Assembly (NCBI GenBank): GCA_002688265.1
Contig: NZCK01000007.1
Coordinates: 33,685 to 97,684 of the forward strand
Direction of reading: 5' to 3'
Source: an archaeon
Lineage (GTDB): Archaea > Nanobdellota > Nanobdellia > Woesearchaeales > GW2011-AR9
DNA length: 64,000 nt
Shown here piece by piece: positions 3,343 through 55,998 of this stretch. Every line of letters starts with the position of its first letter. The stretch's first letter is position 1. The position numbers and the translations under genes are program-made. Below the pieces are notes generated by a model. The model saw only the letters and a list, made by a program, of their open reading frames with translations. It ran no database searches and was not told the DNA's origin.

Positions 3343-3486
3343 ATAAGGGCGAACGCGCGGCCCTACGCTAAAGCTTTAAATGTTTGACAAAGCTTGCGAT
3401 TTCGACCTGAGCGAAGCGAAGCTGAGAAGTGGAACCCAAGCCCGGCCGCGTTCCGAGCGTTTGTTGTACAAACGCGAAGCCTTATC
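3343..3486. ncRNA. Conserved GC-rich structured element, copy A. It is homologous to 53277-53425 in inverse orientation.
   Basis: Terminal helix gataagg/ccttatc. Inner long helix gggcgaacgcgcggcc with ggccgcgttcc. Internal hairpins aagcttt...aaagctt and cgtttg-ttgta-caaacg. It shares gggcgaacgYgcggcc, tcgacctgagc, gcgaagYtgagaRgYggaac, gcccggccgcgttccgag and cgaagcc with the reverse complement of copy B. The outer stem covaries between copies (ttggggagg/cctccccaa in B). Confidence 0.45.
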
Positions 3487-10767: not shown

Positions 10768-10877
10768 GGGACTGTAGCTCAGCGGGAGAGCGCCAGACTG
10801 AAGATGCTCAAAAATCAGTGGTTTTTGGCCAATCATCTGACATCTGGATGTCAAGGGTTCAAATCCCTTCAGTCCCA
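10768..10877 (+). tRNA. tRNA-Phe (GAA) with an intron of about 38 nt at the canonical 37/38 position. No encoded CCA.
   Basis: Acceptor gggactg/cagtccc plus discriminator A. D-arm gctc...gagc. Anticodon stem ccaga/tctgg with loop cuGAAga. The stem is interrupted by tgctcaaaaatcagtggtttttggccaatcatctgaca. T-arm aaggg-ttcaaat-ccctt. Confidence 0.8.
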
Positions 10878-22072: not shown

Positions 22073-22642
22073 TCACCACTTCTTCTCAAACATCTTTCCA
22101 AAAGATTTCATGAAATTTTCTCCCTTAGATTTGTCTTTATCTGGATCACGGACAATGAACCACACTATTAATCCAAAGACTAAAATTATTATTAACAATT
22201 CCGTGACTTCACTACTCCACCAACCAAAAATATCATAAGGTCCAGTCCAGAGTCCTAAGGAGGCTCCGAATACATAAGCTACAAAACCAATAGAAACTAT
22301 TGCAATTAATGGAGCTGCAGCTTTGGCAAAATCTGTTCCAAATATACCCATCAATAAAAGTAACATAATTGCAGCAACAGAAATTAGAGAAATACTAGGT
22401 AAGGCGTTATTCATTACATCAACAGGGTCATATCCTAAAGGATAATTTCCAGTAATATGTGGTACCACAAACAGTAAGGCCAGAGTTAAAGCAATTACAA
22501 CTGAAAAATTCTTATTATCTTTAAACAGTGGCATTTTTGTTGCCACAGCATAGACAATTGTAAACACCAACAAGAATGGTAATAGAAAATCAACTACCCC
22601 CAAGTTTTGAAATAATTGTGCTAAATTTGAAAATGTTGCCAT
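22073..22642 (-). CDS. Paralogous membrane protein, copy 2 of a tandem triplet.
   Basis: MATFSNLAQLFQNLGVVDFLLPFLLVFTIVYAV. Same length class as its neighbours. Confidence 0.55.
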   Translation of the reverse strand: MATFSNLAQLFQNLGVVDFLLPFLLVFTIVYAVATKMPLFKDNKNFSVVIALTLALLFVVPHITGNYPLGYDPVDVMNNALPSISLISVAAIMLLLLMGIFGTDFAKAAAPLIAIVSIGFVAYVFGASLGLWTGPYDIFGWWSSEVTELLIIILVFGLIVWFIVRDPDKDKSKGENFMKSFGKMFEKKW

Positions 22643-48320: not shown

Positions 48321-48739
48321 ATTGATGTAAGAGATATATCTCTACTTCCTCCGTGCTTTATGACCAAAGAAAAGTAAGTCTTTTTGTCTTTTCTTCAGAG
48401 CTCTTAAAGAGCATTTAGTGTAATTGACTTGTTTTTTTTGTTCTTGGTTTATAAATTTATTGGGGAGTTGTTGTGGAATTCTATTTTTATGTTTAATTTT
48501 TTGTTTTGATATGTAGACTTTAGATGAAGAAAGTTTATAATGTGAGTATTTTGGAGTGGTGTTCTAAAGACAACAAAAGAAAACAGTTGGCCTGAAATAA
48601 GAAATAAAGATTAAAATTTGCTTTAAAACCAATTAAACAAAATTAATTTGTTTGAGGAATCTGTAAAAAAGACATAATTTTGCTTTGTTCAGGATTAGAA
48701 AGATATTTAAATTAGTAAATGTTTACTTTTGGTAATAAA

Positions 48740-49510
48740 ATGGTTAAAACAATAGGAATTCTGGGAGGGATGGGTCCCGAAGCGACAAATCAGCTAAGTT
48801 TTTTGATTACTTCACTTACTCCAGCTTCAAAAGACCAAGATCACATCCCAGTCATTACATGGAATAATTCCAAAATCCCCCACAGAATTGATGCAATTTT
48901 TAAAAACACAAAAAGCCCAGTGCCAGAAATGGTAAGGATGGCGCAAGGACTAGAATTTTTGGGTTGCGATTATTTAGTTATGCCATGTAACACCGCCCAC
49001 CTCTATCTCAAAGACATACAGCCCAACATAAGAATCCCTTTCATAAACTTCATGGAAGAAGTTACAAGATACATTAAAGAACAATTTCCAAAAGTGCGAA
49101 GAATTGGACTTCTAGGCACCAACATGACTGCAAAGATGAAACTTTACGAAACACCTTTGCTCCGCGAAGATTTTGTAGTCTTAATGCCTTCTGAAGAAAA
49201 AATAGAGGATGTAACTAAAGCAATTTATGAAATAAAGAGCGGACGTAAAGATAGAGCTAGGATATTATTTAAACAGGCAGCAAAAGAACTTATTGACAAT
49301 GGAGCAGAAGTTGTTATTTCAGGATGCACAGAGATCCCACTTGTTCTAAATCAAGAAAATGTAAATTTCCCTTTGATTGACCCCTCTCTTGTTGTGGCAA
49401 AGAGAGTTGTGGAGTTATCCCTTGGAGAACAAGCAAACACAGAATTATTAAGTGTAGCTACACAAGAAGTTATATCTGTTCAAAGTTCTGCGAATTTCTC
49501 GGTGAAGTAA
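48740..49510 (+). CDS. Asp/Glu/hydantoin racemase family enzyme (aspartate racemase-like).
   Basis: IGILGGMGPEAT N-terminal motif and a second conserved Cys region (ISGCTEIP). The track ORF starts 21 nt upstream. Confidence 0.7.
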   Translation: MVKTIGILGGMGPEATNQLSFLITSLTPASKDQDHIPVITWNNSKIPHRIDAIFKNTKSPVPEMVRMAQGLEFLGCDYLVMPCNTAHLYLKDIQPNIRIPFINFMEEVTRYIKEQFPKVRRIGLLGTNMTAKMKLYETPLLREDFVVLMPSEEKIEDVTKAIYEIKSGRKDRARILFKQAAKELIDNGAEVVISGCTEIPLVLNQENVNFPLIDPSLVVAKRVVELSLGEQANTELLSVATQEVISVQSSANFSVK

Positions 49511-49511
49511 A

Positions 49512-51071
49512 ATGTATGATATTTTGATTATTAATGGAGACGTGATAGATGGAACAGGGAAGCCAAGATATAAAGCAGACCTAGGAATTATTGGAAAAAA
49601 GATAGTAAAGATAAGAGATTTAAAGAATTCCAAAGCAAAGAAAATTATTGATGCAAAAGATAAAATTGTTTGTCCTGGATTTATAGATATACATTCTCAT
49701 TCTGATTTCTCAATATTAACTAACCCTTTTGCTAATAGCAAAATCCTCCAAGGCGTAACCACAGAGGTTGTCGGAAATTGTGGAGACTCAGCATTTCCCA
49801 TTAGAGAAAGAAATAGAGAAGAAATCCAAGAACTTGTTCAAAATAAATATGGATTTTCGCCCAGTTGGGAAGATTATGAAGAATACGTAAAATTAGTTAG
49901 TAAAAAAGGATGCGCAGTAAACATATTACCATTATTAGGATACAATACACTAAGATCAGCAATTGTGGGGCACGAAGACATTATTCTTTCAAATGAACAA
50001 AAAACTCTAATGAAAACAATTATTGAAGATTACATGAAAAAAGGAGGCATTGGCATCTCAACAGGACTTATTTATTCTCCAGGAACATTTGTTGGAACAG
50101 AAGAGATTATAGAGATGTGCAAGGTTGTTGCAAAACACAATGGGATTTACACAACACATATCAGAGGAGAGGACGAGAGAATAATCAAATCAATTCTTGA
50201 AGCAAATGAAATTGCAGAAAAAGCAGAAATTAGCACTCAGATTTCTCACTTAAAAATATTAGAAGAAGAAAACTGGCACCTTATTGGAGATTTGATTAAA
50301 ATATTAGATGAGAAAATTTCAGCAAACAAAAATATTAGTTGTGACCAATACCCATATACTGCCTCATTTAAAAACCTTAAAGCAATTCTTCCAAATTGGG
50401 CAAAAGAAGGAGGAGACAAAAAAATAATTGAAAGACTCTCAGATAAAGAATCTTTAATAAAAATAGAAAAAGAAATAAAAATAAATCCAGACAAGATCAA
50501 GGTGTCTTTCCTATCAAATGAAAAATTTCAAAATCTTATAGGAAAAAAACTAAGTAGAATTGCAGATGAATTAAAAGTAACCGAATTTGAAGCATTTTCA
50601 ATAATACTAAAAGCAGATATCAAAACAAAAGCCATATTCATAAATCAATCTGAAGAAGTTATTGAGAAACTCATGAAAAAAGACTATGTCATGATTGGTT
50701 CAGATGGTTACGCAAGAAACACACAAGGAATCTTATCAAATGGAGCAAACCACCCAAGAGATTTCGGATCATTCACAAGAGTTCTTTCAAACTATGTTAG
50801 AGAGAGAAAAATTATCTCTCTTGAAAAAGCAATTAAAAAAATGACTTCTTTGCCAGCAATAAAACTAAATCTGCAAGATAGAGGAACTATTGAAGTTAAT
50901 AAAATTTCTGATATAATAATATTTGATGCACTAGAGGTTAAAGACAAGGCAACATTTGACTCTCCAAAACAATATTCAAAAGGAGTAGAAGAAGTCATTG
51001 TTAATGGAAAGCATGTTGTTGAGATGGGCAAAATAAACAACATACTAGCAGGAGAGGTAATTAGAATATGA
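49512..51071 (+). CDS. N-acyl-D-amino-acid deacylase (D-aminoacylase) family amidohydrolase.
   Basis: MYDILIINGDVIDGTG...VCPGFIDIHSHSD is the metal-dependent amidohydrolase N-terminus typical of D-aminoacylases. 519 aa. Its start is 2 nt after the racemase stop and its end overlaps the next gene (ATGA). Confidence 0.7.
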   Translation: MYDILIINGDVIDGTGKPRYKADLGIIGKKIVKIRDLKNSKAKKIIDAKDKIVCPGFIDIHSHSDFSILTNPFANSKILQGVTTEVVGNCGDSAFPIRERNREEIQELVQNKYGFSPSWEDYEEYVKLVSKKGCAVNILPLLGYNTLRSAIVGHEDIILSNEQKTLMKTIIEDYMKKGGIGISTGLIYSPGTFVGTEEIIEMCKVVAKHNGIYTTHIRGEDERIIKSILEANEIAEKAEISTQISHLKILEEENWHLIGDLIKILDEKISANKNISCDQYPYTASFKNLKAILPNWAKEGGDKKIIERLSDKESLIKIEKEIKINPDKIKVSFLSNEKFQNLIGKKLSRIADELKVTEFEAFSIILKADIKTKAIFINQSEEVIEKLMKKDYVMIGSDGYARNTQGILSNGANHPRDFGSFTRVLSNYVRERKIISLEKAIKKMTSLPAIKLNLQDRGTIEVNKISDIIIFDALEVKDKATFDSPKQYSKGVEEVIVNGKHVVEMGKINNILAGEVIRI

Positions 51072-52450
51072 AAACAGTAGCAGAGCAACTAATAGATATG
51101 CAAATTGGACAAAGCGCAACATATCTTCTCTCAATCAGAGGTGCCCATCCCGCATATATGGCAACACTATCAGACAGATTAATCGAGGAAGGCAGACATT
51201 TAGGAGACAATGTTGTTAATATAAACATAACCTCAGAACCATCTTCAGACTATGGAGGACATAGAACAGTCTTAGTTACGGATCCAAGAAGAGAAACAAA
51301 TGGACAGATTGGAAATGGATATGTTCACCCAACTCTTGAAGAAGAAGAATTACATGAAATGGTATTTGGAAACTCAGAAACTATTGCTGTGTTAAGACAA
51401 CTAATTGAAGAAGGAAATAGAGTAGTTATTAATCCATATAAAAATTCTTTACACATTGATGGACTTGACATAGCAATTCCAGATATTGAAGTTCTTGGAC
51501 CAACAGGAAATCTTGTTGAAAGTTGGGACAATAAGTTTTACCAGTTCTCAAGATTCCAAGAATCTGGCCTAAATGTTCCACCAGGAGAAATTGTAGAAGG
51601 ATTAAATGAGCTTGAGAGAAAATTAGCGGAAATTGATTCAGAGGAAGGTGCATTTGTAACAATAAAAAATAGTCACTCTGGACTTGGAAGCGCTCGAGTT
51701 AGATCAGTAGAAGATATAAGAAGAAGATTTACAAATCCTCATGAAACTTATTTAATTACTAGTTGGATAAAAGATATTGTATGTGCACCTTGTTGTTTTG
51801 GAATTGTTGGAGATGAAGGAGTATTAGTATTAGATCCCGCAGACCAAATCTTTGAAAACCAAGTCCAATATAGAGGAAACATTTTTCCATCAATCCTGTC
51901 AAGAGAACTGCAAAATAAAGTAAGAGAAGAGAATAGAAAAGTAGGAGAACTTCTTAAAAAAGATGACTATAGAGGAATCTACTGTTGCGATTTTATCAGC
52001 GATGGAAAGGAGATTTACCTCATTGAGGTGAACCCAAGAAAGTTTGGCCACCTCTCTACATTGACACTGATGTACGATGCTGAAGGAAAAGTAAACATCC
52101 CACAGTTAATTTTGAATTCCCATTTCTCTGAACCAATTTTCAATGGAGAAGATAAGCAACAAGTAGGTGTTAATCCAAATTATAATTGGTCAATGTACAG
52201 GATTGTTCAAAATACAGAAACTCCTTTAATTTTGACCAAAGATATTTCTGAATTAGTTGGAGAAACAGATGAAGCAAAAACATTTGACAGTTATGGTGTT
52301 GTTGCAGTAAATCCTTTGGCAGCAGGCACCATCATTCATCCAGGAGCAACGTTGGCAAGATTATGTGTATATCAACCTTCAAGAGAAGATGTGCTTAAGG
52401 CAATTAGATCCACCGAAGCACTTATTAGGCAAAACACGAAACCATACTAA
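51068..52450 (+). CDS. ATP-grasp family ligase of unknown substrate.
   Basis: C-terminal IYCCDFISDGKEIYLIEVNPRK (E-x-N-x-R Mg/ATP motif) and the preceding glycine-rich loop region. The N-terminal substrate domain is unassigned. Confidence 0.6.
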   Translation: MKTVAEQLIDMQIGQSATYLLSIRGAHPAYMATLSDRLIEEGRHLGDNVVNINITSEPSSDYGGHRTVLVTDPRRETNGQIGNGYVHPTLEEEELHEMVFGNSETIAVLRQLIEEGNRVVINPYKNSLHIDGLDIAIPDIEVLGPTGNLVESWDNKFYQFSRFQESGLNVPPGEIVEGLNELERKLAEIDSEEGAFVTIKNSHSGLGSARVRSVEDIRRRFTNPHETYLITSWIKDIVCAPCCFGIVGDEGVLVLDPADQIFENQVQYRGNIFPSILSRELQNKVREENRKVGELLKKDDYRGIYCCDFISDGKEIYLIEVNPRKFGHLSTLTLMYDAEGKVNIPQLILNSHFSEPIFNGEDKQQVGVNPNYNWSMYRIVQNTETPLILTKDISELVGETDEAKTFDSYGVVAVNPLAAGTIIHPGATLARLCVYQPSREDVLKAIRSTEALIRQNTKPY

Positions 52451-52483
52451 GATTTATAACAAAGAAAATTATACTAACTGACA

Positions 52484-53089
52484 ATGCAACCATACTTCGC
52501 AACTACAGAATACACTACAGCAGCCTCTGCTGTTCTCAACATCATGAAGATCTTAGACTCTTCTGTTGAAATGTGTCAAAGCGAAGAGTTTCGCATCTGG
52601 CAAAAAACAACCATCCTACCAACTAGAGCTAGCTCAGTATTTGCTCTAGCTAAATACGCTAAAGAAAAAGGGCTGAACGTTAAAGTAATCGCAGCCAAAG
52701 AAGAATATGATTTCCCAGATTACAGATTCTACAGATACAGCAAAGCAGATGTAGATAGCGCAAAGTTAAGCGCTAGACTCCTTCGAGAAGAAGCAATTAA
52801 CTCAGGAGTACCAGTAGAGATTAGAGATTTTGATCTGAAAGAAATCAACTCTGAGTTAAAGAAAGGAAATATTTTACTATTACGATTGAACGTGAAACCA
52901 ATTAGAAATCTAAAACGTAACTCAAGTAATTACATAATCATCAAAGAATTCGATGGTAAAAACTACAACATTATTGACACCGGCAATTCAGCCATGACCA
53001 TCAGCTGCGAAATGCTCCAAGAATGTTTTGAAACATTAGAGTCAAAGAAACATAGAGACCATAGGATGATTGTGTTTTCTAGAGAGTGA
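52484..53089 (+). CDS. Hypothetical protein, last gene of the racemase/ATP-grasp cluster.
   Basis: 201 aa, ends in TGA. It has a weak resemblance to papain-like/C39-like folds but lacks a clear catalytic Cys. Confidence 0.4.
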   Translation: MQPYFATTEYTTAASAVLNIMKILDSSVEMCQSEEFRIWQKTTILPTRASSVFALAKYAKEKGLNVKVIAAKEEYDFPDYRFYRYSKADVDSAKLSARLLREEAINSGVPVEIRDFDLKEINSELKKGNILLLRLNVKPIRNLKRNSSNYIIIKEFDGKNYNIIDTGNSAMTISCEMLQECFETLESKKHRDHRMIVFSRE

Positions 53090-53276
53090 TTTAAAGTAAT
53101 TTTTAGGTTTTTTTCTTATTTGAAGACAATATTTAAATTCATTACTAAGTAATTTAGGAGAATTTTCGTTGAAACTAGCTAGCAATTAATATTTTAGCTT
53201 CAAAAGATTTAAATAAGTAAGATATATACATAGTTGTGAAAATATACTTTTTTGTATATTGGATTAGAGTAATTTA

Positions 53277-53425
53277 TTGGGGAGGCTTCGCTCGCTAACG
53301 CTCACTCGGAACGCGGCCGGGCCTAAGTTCCGCCTCTCAACTTCGCCTTTCTTTAAAAGGCTCAGGTCGAGATCAATGTTTGATTTGCTGCTTTGGCATA
53401 TTGGCCGCACGTTCGCCCTCCCCAA
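53277..53425. ncRNA. Conserved GC-rich structured element, copy B. It is in inverse orientation relative to copy A at 3343-3486.
   Basis: Its reverse complement aligns block-for-block with copy A. The terminal helix ttggggagg/cctccccaa covaries with A's gataagg/ccttatc. The overlapping 5' end of track ORF 53277..54218 is judged non-coding. Confidence 0.45.
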
Positions 53426-53447
53426 TAAAAACTTAGGAGAAAATAAC

Positions 53448-54218
53448 ATGTGCAGAATATTGATTGCAGCAGGAAAAATAAACAGTGAAGAATTACTTCA
53501 AGCAACAATAGCCATGGCTAAAGATGAAACCTCTACTCACGAATTTAATGAAGCAAATGGCCCTGGATCATGGCAACATGACGACGGATGGGGCATTGCT
53601 TGGATAAAAGACAACGACTGGCAACGATTCAAATCCACAACAGCAATCTTTAATGACCCACAAGTTAGATCTTTCTCAAACCTTGAAAGTGAGTTTATTA
53701 TGATACATGTTAGAAGAAGAATGGGAAGCGAAACTGCAATTGAAAACACACACCCATTTCATATGAACCGTCACGATGTAGGAAATTTTATGTTCTGCCA
53801 CAACGGATACGCAGGAGAAAAGTTTTCATTTTGCCCTAGTTTTAAATTAAAAGGGAAAACAGATTCTGAAAGATTATTTTACTCAATCCTAACAGAAATG
53901 AAAAACCACGACATCAGATGCTCAATCAGAAACGTTTTTACAAACATAGAAACAAAAACAGGAAGTAATGTGGTCTTAGCAAACACAGACAAATCTTTTA
54001 TCGCACTTAAAGAAAATAAATATCCTGTATACTACAGCATGTATATTGGAAGACGTGAAGGATGCGTTGTAATATCAAGTGAAAAATTGAATAAGCTGGA
54101 AGGATTTACTTGGGAAAAAGTTTCTATTGGAGAACTGATCAGTTTAGACCACAGAAACTTAGAAATTGAAAAATTGAAAACTACTGCTTGCCAACAAAAA
54201 CAAATAATTAATGGATGA
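53448..54218 (+). CDS. Class II (Ntn) glutamine amidotransferase-like protein (YafJ/EgtC-type).
   Basis: It starts MCRILIA, with the nucleophilic Cys2 directly after Met1. RBS-like aggag lies 9 nt upstream. Downstream are HDDGWGIAW and NGYAGEK-type Ntn motifs. Confidence 0.65.
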   Translation: MCRILIAAGKINSEELLQATIAMAKDETSTHEFNEANGPGSWQHDDGWGIAWIKDNDWQRFKSTTAIFNDPQVRSFSNLESEFIMIHVRRRMGSETAIENTHPFHMNRHDVGNFMFCHNGYAGEKFSFCPSFKLKGKTDSERLFYSILTEMKNHDIRCSIRNVFTNIETKTGSNVVLANTDKSFIALKENKYPVYYSMYIGRREGCVVISSEKLNKLEGFTWEKVSIGELISLDHRNLEIEKLKTTACQQKQIING

Positions 54219-54387
54219 ATATCCCTTTGTTCTAATTAAAAAATATATTTGAATATATGTTATTCCAATAGAGATTAGATTGTATAGGTTATAATATAGA
54301 TTATTACTGTCTTCATTTGATATTTATTCTCAAGCTTACAAATCTTTATATAGAGTTCCCTGTGCAAACCAATTGGTGATAAAACCG

Positions 54388-55998
54388 ATGGAGCAAAAAG
54401 GTTTAGATGAGATAGAAGAATCCTTCTTAGGTGAAGAGATAATTGAAGATGAGGTGTCATTCATGGCAGAGACAAAGACAGCAAAAACTGCAGCGAAAAA
54501 AGCTAAGGCAAGTAAAGCCACTAGCACTGAAAAAGAAACTGCAGCGAAAAAAGCTGAAAAAGTAGAAGTGGTTGAAGTAAAACAAGAAGAAGTTACTATC
54601 AGCCCAGTTGAAAAAGTTCCAGAACCAAAAGTAGATAAGGTTCAGAAAGAAGTTAAAGTTGAGCCAGTTGCTGAAAAGAAAACCGAACCAAAAGTTGAAG
54701 CATGGGGCAAAGACCCAACTGAAGCAAACGGAAGTAATGCATGGGCTATTCTTAGCGGAGTTTTAGTTGTACTGCTATTGATAAGTGTCTTTACACAAGG
54801 TTTTTCCTTTGGAGACAATACTGCATTAAGTGGAGAAGAGATTGGTCTTTCTGCTGCAGAAGAGTTAGTACAAGAATATGTTAACACAAACTTACTACCA
54901 GACCCATTTACAGCAGGTCTTGTTAGTAGTGAAGAGTTGAATGATTTATACAGAGTAACATTAACAGTGAACGGACAAGAAATTGATTCGTACATAACAA
55001 AAAGCGGAGATCTATTCTTTCCACAAGGATTAGAAATTGAAGATGTTGCAGATACAACAGATACCGAACTTGAAGCTGTTGACAGAGTTGATGTTTCAAC
55101 TGACGACGATACAGTTAAAGGTGACCCTAATGCACCAGTTACTATTGTTGAATTCAGTGACTACGAATGTCCTTTCTGTGGAAAATTTTATGATGACACA
55201 TATGCTTTGTTAGTAGAAAATTATATTGATACTGGTATCGCAAAATTGGCATTTAGAGACTTCCCATTATCATTCCATCCCGAAGCTGAAGGAGCTGCAA
55301 TTGCAGCCGAATGTGCCGGCGAACAAGACGCATACTTTGGAATGCATGACTTACTTTTCGAAAACCAAGAAAGCCTAAGTTCTGAGTTATACTTAGCTTT
55401 GGCTGAAGAACTGGAACTTGATTTAGTAGAGTTTAACACCTGCTTAGATGATCCAGCAATGGCAGACGAAGTGGCAGCCGACATGGCAGATGGAAGCTCT
55501 TTTGGCGTTTCAGGAACACCTGCGTTTTTCATTAACGGAGAATTGATTTCAGGAGCACAACCTTACGAAGCGTTTGTTGCAGCAATTGAACGAGCTTTAG
55601 CAGAATTATCTGTTGAAGAGGTAGAAGTTGAAGCAGCTGAGGAAGTTGTTGAAGAGGTTGCTGAAGTTGAGGAAGATGTCGCGGAAGAAGAAACTGTAGA
55701 AGAAGTAGCTGAAGAAGTTGTAGCTTCTGGAGAAACAGTATCTGTTGAACTGACCGCAAAGAAATGGAGATTCACCCCAAGTGACGTTTCTGTTTCTGTT
55801 GGAGATACTGTTGAATTAACAGTTGTTCCAGAAGACTTAGATGATTTTACTTTTAGCATTGCAGATCTTGGTGTAGAAGAAACTATTAGTGGAGAAACCC
55901 TAATTAGTTTTACAGCTACATACACTGGTAGCTTTGAGTACAGTTGTTCAAGTTGCGAAGAATGGCGTGGAATGACAGGTCAACTAGTTGTTGAGTAG
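54388..55998 (+). CDS. Membrane-anchored DsbA-like thiol-disulfide oxidoreductase fused to a C-terminal cupredoxin-like beta-sandwich domain.
   Basis: K/E/A-rich N-terminus, a TM helix, and a thioredoxin-fold CPFC active site (FSDYECPFCGKFYD). An acidic EEV repeat linker follows. The C-terminal domain is WRFTPSDVSVSVGDTVELTVV...YSCSSCEEWRGMTGQLVV. Confidence 0.6.
   Translation: MEQKGLDEIEESFLGEEIIEDEVSFMAETKTAKTAAKKAKASKATSTEKETAAKKAEKVEVVEVKQEEVTISPVEKVPEPKVDKVQKEVKVEPVAEKKTEPKVEAWGKDPTEANGSNAWAILSGVLVVLLLISVFTQGFSFGDNTALSGEEIGLSAAEELVQEYVNTNLLPDPFTAGLVSSEELNDLYRVTLTVNGQEIDSYITKSGDLFFPQGLEIEDVADTTDTELEAVDRVDVSTDDDTVKGDPNAPVTIVEFSDYECPFCGKFYDDTYALLVENYIDTGIAKLAFRDFPLSFHPEAEGAAIAAECAGEQDAYFGMHDLLFENQESLSSELYLALAEELELDLVEFNTCLDDPAMADEVAADMADGSSFGVSGTPAFFINGELISGAQPYEAFVAAIERALAELSVEEVEVEAAEEVVEEVAEVEEDVAEEETVEEVAEEVVASGETVSVELTAKKWRFTPSDVSVSVGDTVELTVVPEDLDDFTFSIADLGVEETISGETLISFTATYTGSFEYSCSSCEEWRGMTGQLVVE

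What the first reader, a model, noticed from the sequence alone, without database searches (positions are those of the whole stretch)
48740..53089. Compact overlapping-gene operon: Asp/Glu racemase, D-aminoacylase, ATP-grasp ligase and an unknown protein; a candidate D-amino-acid peptide pathway
Four genes are tightly coupled. The racemase stop and D-aminoacylase ATG are 1 nt apart. The D-aminoacylase TGA overlaps the ATP-grasp ATG (ATGA), and the last gene follows after 33 nt. A racemase makes a D-amino acid. A D-aminoacylase handles N-acyl-D-amino acids. An ATP-grasp enzyme makes amide bonds, as in D-Ala-D-Ala ligase, RimK or cyanophycin-type ligases. In an archaeon, which has no murein, such a set is not part of a textbook pathway. 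It suggests synthesis or salvage of a D-amino-acid-containing peptide, poly-amino-acid or modified metabolite. The ATP-grasp N-terminal substrate domain and the 201-aa partner are unassigned. A class II GATase follows after ncRNA-like element B.
Basis: inference. Interest (0 to 1): 0.65.

Follow-up and report, generated by a model that had tools for sequence, protein, structure and literature searches.

The report
D-amino-acid peptide ligase cassette, DPANN archaeon
A tiny marine archaeon carries a tightly packed gene set (racemase, D-specific amidase, ATP-dependent ligase, inactive protease-like partner) that most likely makes and recycles a small peptide containing a D-amino acid. Relatives carry different but functionally equivalent gene sets at the same genomic spot.

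Summary
Four co-directional genes lie at 48740-53089, with a 1-nt gap, an ATGA overlap and a 33-nt gap.

- **Racemase:** intact aspartate/cysteate-type racemase.
- **Amidohydrolase:** intact D-aminoacylase-family enzyme.
- **Ligase:** a rare three-domain ATP-grasp ligase. Its nearest characterised relative is BesA, a gamma-Glu-amino-acid ligase.
- **The 'unknown' 201-aa protein:** a DUF3335/C39-like papain-fold protein that has lost the catalytic Cys and His.
- **Host:** a Woesearchaeota-like DPANN archaeon from a Tara Oceans MAG.

Eight loci were compared: the window and seven relatives. All hold a variable cassette next to rpS3Ae. It is built from:
- a maker of an unusual amino acid (Asp-type or Glu-type racemase, SbnA-like enzyme, opine dehydrogenase);
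- an amide ligase (this ATP-grasp, a glutathione-synthetase-like ATP-grasp, or a GCS2-like ligase);
- an amidohydrolase (D-aminoacylase, M55 D-aminopeptidase or DoeB-like deacylase);
- the C39-like protein (7 of the 8 loci);
- an EgtC-like Ntn amidohydrolase (GATase_4, 6 of the 8 loci).

The racemase-ligase link recurs. The D-aminoacylase link is unique to this window, but a close relative has a D-aminopeptidase in its place.

Best reading: synthesis and turnover of a small D-amino-acid (iso)peptide metabolite. Its identity and role are unknown. This is a new variant of a known kind, of moderate interest.

The parts
48703..48712 (+). TATA-like box (ATATTTAAAT), putative archaeal promoter of the operon
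   Evidence: Read directly from the sequence. Its position implies a transcription start near 48733, so the ATG at 48740 is the likely start codon. This is inference; it was not tested.
48740..49510 (+). PLP-independent Asp/Glu-family racemase, aspartate/cysteate type (256 aa)
   Evidence: PF01177, 1e-39. NCBIfam CuyB cysteate racemase 237.6 bits (cut-off 190) and TIGR00035 190 bits. P. horikoshii aspartate racemase 1jfl, 3e-50. Both catalytic Cys motifs are present (MPCNTAH, SGCTEIP). It is 72% identical to the racemase in the syntenic locus L100.
49512..51071 (+). D-aminoacylase-family amidohydrolase (519 aa)
   Evidence: 1m7j D-aminoacylase 1.7e-72 and 3gip N-acyl-D-glutamate deacylase 1.4e-63. 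Metal-ligand motifs are conserved in the alignment: HSH, GNCG, THIRGE, SHLK, GSDG. Pfam Amidohydro_3 and Amidohydro_1. No homologue was found next to any related ligase or C39-like gene.
51068..52450 (+). Rare three-domain ATP-grasp amide ligase (460 aa), BesA/PRK06524-related
   Evidence: PF02655, 1.3e-12. The best characterised relative is BesA (8yi6), E 7e-4. AlphaFold model pLDDT 88 with a biotin-carboxylase/PurK/BesA-like fold. E-x-N-x-R motif IEVNPR, residues 319-324. Only 290 relatives among 1.84 billion representatives. An orthologue (38% identity) in L087 follows a glutamate racemase.
52484..53089 (+). DUF3335 / C39-like papain-fold protein without the catalytic Cys and His (201 aa), a pseudo-peptidase
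   Evidence: PF11814 6.7e-12 and PF03412 1.2e-4. AlphaFold model pLDDT 94; Foldseek hits to PeiR, the Alr0975 phytochelatin synthase, and PCAT1/ComA. The family alignment and profile alignment to LahT150 (6mpz) place Thr12 at the Cys position, Asn149 at the His position and keep Asp165. 139 homologues at E<=0.001, the named ones from Woesearchaeota/Nanoarchaeota MAGs.
53100..53114 (+). T-runs after the C39-like gene, a possible archaeal terminator of the four-gene unit
   Evidence: Read from the sequence. Inference only.
53448..54218 (+). Class II (Ntn) amidohydrolase, GATase_4, EgtC-like (256 aa). Separately transcribed here, but one of the most constant module parts in relatives
   Evidence: PF13230 1.7e-18 and TIGR03442 EgtC 3.3e-13, below cut-off. 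N-terminal Met-Cys. Orthologues are 33-69% identical in L087, L092, L094, L100 and L102, all in the same cassette.

Best explanation
The four genes, together with the downstream GATase_4, form a cassette for a small amide-linked metabolite that contains a D-amino acid.

Proposed steps:
1. The racemase converts an acidic L-amino acid (aspartate, or the isosteric cysteate) into its D-form.
2. The ATP-grasp enzyme activates a carboxylate as an acyl-phosphate and joins it to an amine. This gives a dipeptide or isopeptide with the D-amino acid as one partner. By analogy with BesA and with the GCS2-like ligases that occupy the same slot in relatives, a gamma-glutamyl-type linkage is the leading guess.
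3. The D-aminoacylase-family enzyme (which cleaves acyl-NH-D-amino-acid bonds) and the EgtC/DUG3-like Ntn amidohydrolase (which cleaves gamma-glutamyl amides) take the product apart again, for turnover, recycling or level control.
4. The C39-like protein has lost its protease residues. It acts as a non-catalytic partner, binding the peptide or the ligase.

Shown here: gene order and coupling, family membership, intact catalytic motifs, loss of the C39 Cys and His, and recurrence of the 'unusual-amino-acid maker + ligase + amidohydrolase' logic in relatives.

Inferred: co-transcription, substrates, type of bond, direction of flux, and physiological role (osmolyte, redox or thiol-type peptide, or chelator).
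For: - Tight coupling of the four genes.
- Intact active-site motifs in the racemase, amidohydrolase, ATP-grasp and Ntn hydrolase.
- Both recoverable loci with an orthologous ATP-grasp have a PF01177 racemase immediately upstream, but from different subfamilies: Asp/CuyB-type here, MurI-type TIGR00067 (245 bits) in L087. The GATase_4 is orthologous in both.
- Close relative L100 (racemase 72%, C39-like 68%, GATase_4 69% identical) has, in the same slot, a glutathione-synthetase-like ATP-grasp and an M55 D-aminopeptidase (PF04951, 1.2e-47) in place of the ATP-grasp_3 and D-aminoacylase. This is non-homologous replacement that keeps the function classes.
- Other relatives combine the C39-like gene, with or without GATase_4, with GCS2-like ligases, or with SbnA-like + GNAT + GSH-S-like ATP-grasp + DoeB-like deacylase, or with opine dehydrogenase + amidohydrolase.
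- Distant bacterial members of the same ATP-grasp family are followed by a KamA-family (glutamate-2,3-aminomutase-like) enzyme in 46 of 61 loci and by an M20 glutamate-carboxypeptidase-like hydrolase in 30 of 61. The logic is the same.
- The nearest characterised relative, BesA, ligates a non-proteinogenic amino acid to glutamate (the BesE substrate is gamma-Glu-propargylglycine, bioRxiv 10.1101/2025.10.10.681649).
- Class II amidotransferase-like DUG3 degrades glutathione (PMC12653102).
- Operons that pair a peptide-forming enzyme with a peptidase have a precedent in the NAGGN osmolyte operon (PMC8070244).
Against: - No biochemical data.
- Only two loci carry the orthologous ATP-grasp with recoverable context; the clade is very rare.
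- The D-aminoacylase is not linked to the ligase anywhere else.
- M55 enzymes remove N-terminal D-residues, whereas D-aminoacylases free C-terminal D-residues, so the two 'equivalents' do not predict the same bond.
- Synthesis and hydrolysis in one operon looks futile unless regulated.
- GATase_4 is separated from the operon here by T-runs and a 358-nt spacer.
- Similarity to BesA is weak (E 7e-4, about 120 residues).
- Neighbourhoods of distant family members differ.
Confidence: 0.5

Rival explanations
1. Salvage or catabolism of environmental D-amino-acid derivatives. The D-aminoacylase (and, in relatives, the D-aminopeptidase) frees D-amino acids from N-acyl-D-amino acids or bacterial cell-wall debris. 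The racemase turns them into usable L-forms, and GATase_4 cleaves gamma-glutamyl remnants. The ligase re-uses the products or is only loosely related.
For: DPANN archaeon from a 0.1-0.22 um marine fraction, with reduced metabolism expected. Racemase and D-aminoacylase are adjacent with a 1-nt gap. This enzyme family hydrolyses N-acyl-D-amino acids (1m7j, 3gip). Three of the five genes are hydrolases or isomerases.
Against: The ATP-grasp start overlaps the amidohydrolase stop. In L087 the racemase is coupled directly to the ligase with no D-specific hydrolase. No transporter lies in the window's unit. An ATP-consuming ligase, and in relatives one or two more ligases, is not expected in a purely catabolic route.
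Confidence: 0.2
2. Protein or peptide tailing. The ATP-grasp adds (D-)acidic residues to the C-terminus or a side chain of a protein or ribosomal peptide, as RimK does on S6. The C39-like domain recognises the target, and the hydrolases trim the tail.
For: C39-like domains without the catalytic Cys act as substrate-binding modules in ABC exporters such as HlyB (general knowledge). DUF3335 is reported as often fused to GNAT-type ligase/acetylase domains (PMC10318531). The cassette always sits next to, and divergent from, the rpS3Ae gene, whose product has an acidic tail.
Against: No RimK-family hit for the window's protein. No precursor-peptide ORF was noticed. The nearest characterised relative acts on free amino acids. 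The partner enzymes (D-aminoacylase, M55, DoeB-like, EgtC-like) are small-molecule hydrolases. The rpS3Ae adjacency is explained by synteny around a variable slot.
Confidence: 0.12
3. Cell-envelope chemistry: synthesis of a D-Glu/D-Asp-containing envelope polymer or cross-link (like poly-gamma-glutamate or pseudomurein), with the C39-like protein related to wall isopeptidases.
For: The top structural neighbour of the C39-like model is the pseudomurein endoisopeptidase PeiR. Racemase plus ATP-grasp is the logic of D-Ala-D-Ala and D-Glu wall chemistry (general knowledge).
Against: None of the five proteins matched a signal-peptide or membrane-protein family, and no Mur-type ligase, lipid-carrier enzyme or exporter lies in the unit. 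The C39-like protein lacks the catalytic residues. Foldseek TM-scores are only about 0.5. The cassette content varies too much between close relatives for a core envelope function.
Confidence: 0.06
4. No common pathway. The slot beside rpS3Ae is a recombination hot-spot that collects unrelated amino-acid-metabolism genes, and the tight spacing only reflects genome compaction.
For: Gene content of the slot differs in every locus examined. DPANN genomes are compact. The D-aminoacylase is unique to this window.
Against: The same three function classes recur with non-homologous proteins. Translational coupling (ATGA here; overlapping starts in L087) links the amidohydrolase or racemase to the ligase. 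The C39-like and GATase_4 genes are retained in most loci.
Confidence: 0.1

Closest known systems
BesA (L-propargylglycine--L-glutamate ligase) of the beta-ethynylserine pathway, and the PRK06524 'biotin carboxylase-like' ATP-grasp group
   Same: Best sequence match among characterised or solved proteins. Same three-domain ATP-grasp fold. It ligates a non-proteinogenic amino acid made by neighbouring genes to form a small (gamma-glutamyl) dipeptide that is later hydrolysed.
   Different: Only about 120 residues align, at E 7e-4. NCBIfam score 24 against a cut-off of 750. Different partners (racemase and D-aminoacylase instead of halogenase, oxidase and lyase). Archaeal host. Substrates unknown.
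Glutathione / gamma-glutamylcysteine metabolism and ergothioneine EgtA-EgtC logic (GCS2-type ligase, GSH-synthetase ATP-grasp, class II Ntn amidohydrolase EgtC/DUG3)
   Same: Relatives carry GCS2-like ligases, GSH-synthetase-like ATP-grasps and the same EgtC-like GATase_4 in this cassette, and glutaredoxin genes lie nearby in two loci. The C39-like model resembles a glutathione-binding primitive phytochelatin synthase.
   Different: The window has no GCS2-like or GSH-S-like gene. All scores are below the equivalog cut-offs. The racemases and D-specific hydrolases have no counterpart in glutathione metabolism.
NAGGN osmolyte operon (asnO-ngg-peptidase) of Pseudomonas and Sinorhizobium
   Same: One operon combines a dipeptide-forming enzyme, a class II amidotransferase-type protein and a peptidase to make a compatible-solute dipeptide (PMC8070244). 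DUF3335 domains are reported fused to GNAT-type ligase proteins (PMC10318531).
   Different: No GNAT gene in the window. GATase_4 here lacks an asparagine-synthase domain, so it is a hydrolase rather than an amidotransferase. The 201-aa protein gave no NCBIfam hit to the Ngg family. My recollection that Ngg itself carries DUF3335 could not be verified here.
D-Ala-D-Ala / vancomycin-resistance type sets (racemase + ATP-grasp ligase Ddl/VanC + D,D-peptidase VanX/VanXY)
   Same: Same three-part logic: racemase, ATP-grasp dipeptide ligase and D-specific hydrolase encoded together (general knowledge).
   Different: The Ddl models score only about 13-16 bits against cut-offs of 246-310. The racemase is PLP-independent and Asp-type rather than an alanine or serine racemase. 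The hydrolase family differs. There is no murein in archaea.
Non-catalytic C39-like domains (CLD) of ABC exporters such as HlyB
   Same: C39/papain-like fold retained while the nucleophile Cys is lost; a binding rather than cleaving role (general knowledge; loss shown).
   Different: Stand-alone 200-aa cytosolic protein. The His is also lost (Asn149). It has its own invariant basic motif (FPDYRFYRY, R134, K138, K189, R191), and its partners are amide ligases, not transporters.

Membership tests
Asp/Glu racemase superfamily (PF01177), aspartate-racemase subfamily | Significant full-length match to the family model and to solved aspartate racemases | tested here: met
   PF01177 136.9 bits (cut-off 31). 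TIGR00035 190 bits (cut-off 93). 1jfl 3e-50.
Asp/Glu racemase superfamily (PF01177), aspartate-racemase subfamily | Two catalytic cysteines of the two-base mechanism | tested here: met
   The motifs LVMPCNTAH and ISGCTEIP are present in the translation. Equivalence to the P. horikoshii AspR cysteines rests on the 1jfl match and general knowledge.
Cysteate racemase CuyB (NF052483 equivalog) | Score above the curated equivalog cut-off | tested here: met
   237.6 bits against a cut-off of 190.
Cysteate racemase CuyB (NF052483 equivalog) | Genomic association with the D-cysteate sulfo-lyase CuyA, and activity on cysteate | not tested
   None of the five cassette proteins matched a CuyA-type (PALP) family; the rest of the window was not searched for CuyA. 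The CuyA association is described in PMC11193023. Substrate preference (Asp versus cysteate) cannot be decided from sequence.
D-aminoacylase / N-acyl-D-amino-acid deacylase (amidohydrolase superfamily) | Full-length similarity to solved D-aminoacylases | tested here: met
   1m7j 1.7e-72 and 3gip 1.4e-63, each in two aligned stretches covering both ends.
D-aminoacylase / N-acyl-D-amino-acid deacylase (amidohydrolase superfamily) | Metal-binding residues (HxH, Cys, two His, Asp) | tested here: met
   DIHSHSD, GNCG, THIRGE, ISHLK and MIGSDG align with the corresponding motifs of 1m7j.
D-aminoacylase / N-acyl-D-amino-acid deacylase (amidohydrolase superfamily) | NCBIfam subfamily PRK09061 cut-off; D-stereospecific activity | tested here: not met
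   206 bits against a cut-off of 340. The segment at about residues 290-340 does not align with known structures. Stereospecificity is not testable here.
ATP-grasp superfamily (PF02655 ATP-grasp_3) | Family model above cut-off, three-domain fold, E-x-N-x-R Mg/phosphate motif | tested here: met
   48.5 bits (cut-off 23.2). Model pLDDT 88; Foldseek E 1e-19 to 1e-21 to biotin carboxylase, PurK and BesA. IEVNPR, with N322 and R324 near-invariant in the family.
BesA (NF042917 equivalog) | Score above the equivalog cut-off | tested here: not met
   24.2 bits against 750. It is a relative, not an orthologue.
Biotin carboxylase | Equivalog score; BCCP and carboxyltransferase partners | tested here: not met
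   PRK06524 38.6 bits against 684. No biotin-carrier or carboxyltransferase genes in the neighbourhood. Only the fold is shared.
RimK / D-Ala-D-Ala ligase | Family model match | tested here: not met
   No RimK hit at E<=0.1. Ddl models score 12.8-16.3 bits against cut-offs of 246-310.
Peptidase C39 / DUF3335 (papain-like) | Family model above cut-off and papain-like fold | tested here: met
   PF11814 45.8 bits (cut-off 25) and PF03412 22.3 bits (cut-off 22). Model pLDDT 94, with Foldseek hits to PeiR, Alr0975, PCAT1 and ComA.
Peptidase C39 / DUF3335 (papain-like) | Catalytic Cys and His (with Asp) and the oxyanion Gln | tested here: not met
   Thr12 at the Cys position, Asn149 at the His position, Asp165 kept, and Ala6 where most homologues have Gln. 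Cys occurs at this position in only 3 of 39 aligned homologues, and His never. It should therefore not be filed as an active C39 peptidase.
Class II (Ntn) glutamine amidotransferase-like, GATase_4 / EgtC | Family model and N-terminal nucleophile Cys | tested here: met
   PF13230 67 bits (cut-off 23). Starts Met-Cys-Arg, as do the L087, L092 and L100 orthologues.
Class II (Ntn) glutamine amidotransferase-like, GATase_4 / EgtC | EgtC equivalog cut-off; ergothioneine genes nearby | tested here: not met
   49.6 bits against 218.65. No egtB/egtD-like genes in the locus.

The most novel reading that the evidence does not exclude
Woesearchaeota-like DPANN archaea carry, at a fixed spot beside rpS3Ae, a hypervariable biosynthetic cassette. 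It produces a family of lineage-specific small gamma-glutamyl/aspartyl peptides built on non-proteinogenic amino acids (D-Asp or D-cysteate, D-Glu, diaminopropionate-type, opine-type). These would act as a glutathione-like or osmolyte-like metabolite class unique to these organisms. The catalytically dead C39-like protein would be a previously unrecognised obligatory partner of three unrelated amide-ligase families.
Probability: 0.2. Interest if true: 0.75.

Novelty: new variant of a known kind. Interest (0 to 1): 0.55.

Why it matters
DPANN archaea are thought to have minimal biosynthetic capacity and no D-amino-acid-containing wall. A dedicated, ATP-consuming cassette that makes a D-amino-acid peptide would point to an unrecognised metabolite class in these widespread ultra-small marine archaea, particularly as close relatives swap it for functionally equivalent versions. 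Candidates are an osmolyte, a redox buffer or a chelator.

It would also give a first functional handle on three things:
- a very rare ATP-grasp clade;
- a divergent GCS2-like ligase family without a confident Pfam match;
- the DUF3335 pseudo-peptidase family.

Across distant lineages the recurring pattern is 'unusual-amino-acid maker + BesA-like ATP-grasp + amidohydrolase': racemases in archaea, 2,3-aminomutases in Desulfobacterota, and alkyne chemistry in Streptomyces. This suggests a general rule for this ligase family that could guide the discovery of new dipeptide natural products.

Tried and rejected
**Searches that led nowhere**
- Word-indexed homologue searches with the ATP-grasp found only itself. 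With a 30-sequence profile they found only itself and P0017.
- The first genome scan with the wide alignment failed for lack of a conserved stretch.
- The JGI metagenome scan found no relative above 27% identity over an extended match; two short ~50-residue fragments reached 37-41%. Only one orthologous locus (L087) with context could be recovered.
- 80 bacterial loci were fetched; an ATP-grasp ORF was located in 61 of them, and none had a racemase, D-aminoacylase, C39-like or GATase_4 neighbour. The linkage is therefore specific to the archaeal clade.
- PADLOC gave no meaningful defence-system hit. The defence-system idea was rejected.
- Rfam gave nothing for element B at E<=1.
- tblastn of the C39-like protein against plasmids, done to reach ngg on pSymB, gave no match.
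- A profile of the ~400-aa family against PDB sequences gave nothing. Its GCS2 identity rests on the NCBIfam and Pfam hits.

**Unavailable resources**
- Iyer et al. 2009 (PMC3268129) is not held.

**Ideas rejected**
- Biotin carboxylase, PurK, RimK, Ddl or carbamoyl-phosphate synthase identity for the ATP-grasp: only the fold or weak local matches are shared.
- An active double-glycine peptidase role for the 201-aa protein: the catalytic residues are absent.
- Element B as a MITE: the terminal stems of the two copies differ by compensatory changes, which fits a structured RNA better.

Full report
**Observation**

- The racemase ORF runs 48719/48740-49510. Its TAA stop is followed by one base and then the ATG of a 519-aa ORF (49512-51071).
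- The TGA of that ORF overlaps the ATG of a 460-aa ORF (51068-52450) as ATGA.
- After a 33-nt spacer comes a 201-aa ORF (52484-53089).
- T-runs follow at 53100-53114. A 358-nt spacer with a G+C-rich element then precedes a class II amidotransferase-like gene that starts Met-Cys at 53448.
- A TATA-like ATATTTAAAT at 48703-48712, together with the N-terminus of a 72%-identical orthologue, favours 48740 as the racemase start.
- The same arrangement occurs on two independent assemblies. The window is part of a 209-kb Tara Oceans scaffold, deposited in NCBI as an unclassified 'archaeon' MAG.

**What the proteins are**

*Racemase.* It is a PLP-independent Asp/Glu-family enzyme: PF01177; 3e-50 to Pyrococcus aspartate racemase; above the NCBIfam cut-off for the cysteate racemase CuyB. 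Both catalytic Cys motifs are present. Aspartate and cysteate are isosteric, and sequence cannot separate the two specificities (PMC11193023 describes CuyB).

*Amidohydrolase.* The 519-aa protein belongs to the D-aminoacylase family (1.7e-72 to 1m7j; 1.4e-63 to an N-acyl-D-glutamate deacylase). All metal-ligand motifs are conserved, but residues around 290-340, in the region that shapes the substrate pocket, do not align.

*ATP-grasp.* The 460-aa protein is an ATP-grasp enzyme (PF02655).
- The AlphaFold model (pLDDT 88) has the three-domain biotin-carboxylase/PurK/BesA architecture.
- It keeps the E-x-N-x-R motif.
- It fails every equivalog cut-off for carboxylases, RimK, Ddl and BesA.
- Its best characterised relative is BesA, which joins propargylglycine to glutamate.
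- The family is rare, with 290 hits at E<=0.001 among 1.84 billion representatives. Only three other lineages exceed 35% identity: two from the same Tara sample and one (P0069) known only from a 557-bp ENA contig.

*The 201-aa protein.* It is not unassignable.
- It matches DUF3335 ('Peptidase_C39 like', 6.7e-12) and weakly Peptidase_C39.
- It folds with pLDDT 94 into a papain-like domain. Its neighbours are the pseudomurein isopeptidase PeiR, a glutathione-binding primitive phytochelatin synthase, and the PCAT1/ComA C39 domains.
- It has 139 homologues at E<=0.001, the 120 listed being stand-alone proteins of about 160-230 aa; every organism name attached to them is Woesearchaeota, Nanoarchaeota or unclassified archaeon. 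This identifies the host as a DPANN archaeon.
- An alignment of 39 homologues and a profile alignment to the LahT150 protease place Thr12 at the nucleophile Cys position and Asn149 at the His position. The Asp (D165) is kept. The window's subclade has also lost the oxyanion Gln.
- The family instead has its own invariant, mostly basic residues (R48, FPDYRFYRY at 77-85, R134, K138, K189, R191). It is therefore a pseudo-peptidase with a conserved binding site, not a protease.

*Downstream gene.* It is a GATase_4 Ntn amidohydrolase, closest to EgtC but below cut-off.

**Comparative context**

All loci found lie in the same syntenic slot, divergent from rpS3Ae and a metallophosphoesterase gene.

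| Locus | Relation to window | Cassette content |
|---|---|---|
| Window | - | Asp/cysteate-type racemase -> D-aminoacylase -> ATP-grasp_3 -> C39-like -> element B -> GATase_4 |
| L087 | ATP-grasp 38% identical over full length; GATase_4 39% | MurI-type glutamate racemase (TIGR00067, 245 bits) -> ATP-grasp -> 404-aa protein -> GATase_4, with overlapping or abutting genes |
| L100 | Close relative: racemase 72%, C39-like 68%, GATase_4 69% | Racemase -> glutathione-synthetase-like ATP-grasp (342 aa) -> M55 D-aminopeptidase (opposite strand) -> C39-like -> 406-aa protein -> GATase_4, then the same DsbA-cupredoxin, GDH and hydrolase genes as the window |
| L101 | C39-like 51% | SbnA-like PLP enzyme, GNAT, GSH-synthetase-like ATP-grasp, DoeB/aspartoacylase-family deacylase, C39-like |
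| L092 | C39-like 70% | Opine-dehydrogenase-family protein, an amidohydrolase, TauE, C39-like, GATase_4 |
| L093, L094, L102 | C39-like 62%, 51% and 44% | A ~400-450-aa protein beside the C39-like gene; GATase_4 in L094 and L102, with glutaredoxin genes close by |

- The ~400-aa proteins of L087, L093, L094, L100 and L102 form one family. It is a divergent GCS2/YbdK carboxylate-amine ligase: TIGR02050 hits in 3 of 3 members tested (best E 9.6e-6), Pfam GCS2 at cut-off, and GCS2 on record for the L102 copy.
- The window holds no GCS2-like gene or remnant.
- The most constant parts of the cassette are therefore the C39-like protein (7 of the 8 loci) and GATase_4 (6 of 8). The variable parts always come from three classes: a maker of a non-standard amino acid, one or two amide ligases, and an amidohydrolase.

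**Wider family logic**

- An ATP-grasp ORF was located in 61 of the 80 bacterial loci fetched (mostly Desulfobacterota; homologues about 25% identical). None of the 61 has a racemase, D-aminoacylase, C39-like or GATase_4 neighbour.
- In 46 of them the next gene is a KamA-family radical-SAM aminomutase, closest to glutamate 2,3-aminomutase.
- In 30 of them an M20 glutamate-carboxypeptidase-like hydrolase follows.
- Another member sits among an oligopeptide ABC transporter, a GSH-S/RimK-type enzyme and a glutathionylspermidine-synthase-like enzyme.
- Taken with BesA, this ATP-grasp family repeatedly accompanies an enzyme that creates an unusual amino acid and a hydrolase that could cleave the resulting amide.

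**Mechanism proposed**

1. The racemase supplies a D-acidic amino acid.
2. The ATP-grasp ligates it, via an acyl-phosphate, into a small dipeptide or isopeptide.
3. The D-aminoacylase (acyl-NH-D-amino-acid bonds) and the EgtC/DUG3-like Ntn hydrolase (gamma-glutamyl amides; DUG3 degrades glutathione, PMC12653102) hydrolyse it for turnover.
4. The C39-like pseudo-peptidase is a non-catalytic partner.

A gamma-glutamyl linkage is the leading guess, for three reasons:
- BesA and GCS2 enzymes make such bonds.
- EgtC and DUG3 cleave them.
- The structural neighbours of the C39-like fold include a glutathione-handling enzyme.

This remains inference. Precedent for ligase, amidotransferase-type protein and peptidase in one operon is the NAGGN osmolyte system (PMC8070244), and DUF3335 domains are reported fused to GNAT-type ligase proteins (PMC10318531).

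The physiological role is open: an osmolyte in a marine cell, a redox peptide (given the glutaredoxin and DsbA neighbours), or a chelator (given the opine-dehydrogenase and SbnA-like variants).

**Weak points**

- Only two loci with the orthologous ligase could be examined.
- The D-aminoacylase linkage is unique to this window.
- M55 and D-aminoacylase act on opposite ends of a peptide.
- GATase_4 is a separate transcription unit here.
- Nothing was tested biochemically.

**Rivals**

D-amino-acid salvage (0.2), protein tailing (0.12), envelope chemistry (0.06) and a functionally unlinked variable island (0.1) are set out in the rival explanations.

**Verdict**

- The system is an uncharacterised variant of known ATP-grasp/GCS2 small-peptide ligase clusters, found in a DPANN archaeon.
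- It has an unexpected pseudo-peptidase partner and striking cassette-like variability between relatives.

Noticed in passing
window 53277-53435 (+) and 3346-3457 (-): Element B is a ~160-nt G+C-rich (about 55%) element in a 35% G+C genome, with a strong fold (-56.9 kcal/mol, z -3.7). A second copy, 71.5% identical, lies in another intergenic region. The closing stem differs between the copies by five compensatory double changes, which favours a structured ncRNA family over a MITE. There is no Rfam match.
   Followed up: partly
window 48454-48467: The 14-nt 5' end of element B (ATTTATTGGGGAG) recurs exactly in the 400-nt intergenic region upstream of the racemase (E 0.1). Its meaning is unknown.
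   Followed up: no
window 53376-54218: The NCBI record annotates the GATase_4 protein as 280 aa (MAG60368.1), which would start inside element B. Orthologues in L087, L092 and L100, and the Ntn mechanism, require the Met-Cys start at 53448 (256 aa), as in the ENA gene call.
   Followed up: yes
L007-L086 (bacterial loci, mostly Desulfobacterota): There is a conserved three-gene set: an ATP-grasp of this family, a KamA-family aminomutase closest to glutamate 2,3-aminomutase (46 of 61 loci), and an M20 glutamate-carboxypeptidase-like hydrolase (30 of 61). Many are from soda-lake genera. This is a candidate beta-amino-acid dipeptide pathway, possibly for a compatible solute.
   Followed up: partly
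L101 2525-6606: The Woesearchaeal variant cassette has an SbnA-like PLP enzyme, a GNAT, a glutathione-synthetase-like ATP-grasp, a DoeB/aspartoacylase-family deacylase and the C39-like protein, followed by a MacB-type ABC exporter. The parts list resembles N-acetyl-aspartyl-glutamate-type or diaminopropionate-peptide chemistry.
   Followed up: partly
L087 6984-8198; L093 5698-6945; L094 5756-6967; L100 5257-6477; L102 6806-8155: This ~400-450-aa protein family mostly lacks a Pfam hit on record. It is a divergent GCS2/YbdK-type carboxylate-amine ligase with conserved motifs GxExE, SGxHxHxS, NTGY..R.R and GTxExRxxD.
   Followed up: yes
window 10768-10877 (+) and 22139-22228 (-): Rfam reports a 110-nt tRNA at 10768-10877, probably intron-containing, which ARAGORN misses. 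ARAGORN alone reports a 90-nt tRNA-Ile(AAT) at 22139-22228.
   Followed up: no
window 54373-55998 (+): A 541-aa (536 aa in the ENA gene call) very acidic protein combines DsbA/thioredoxin-like and cupredoxin-like domains. It is conserved downstream of the cassette in several relatives.
   Followed up: no
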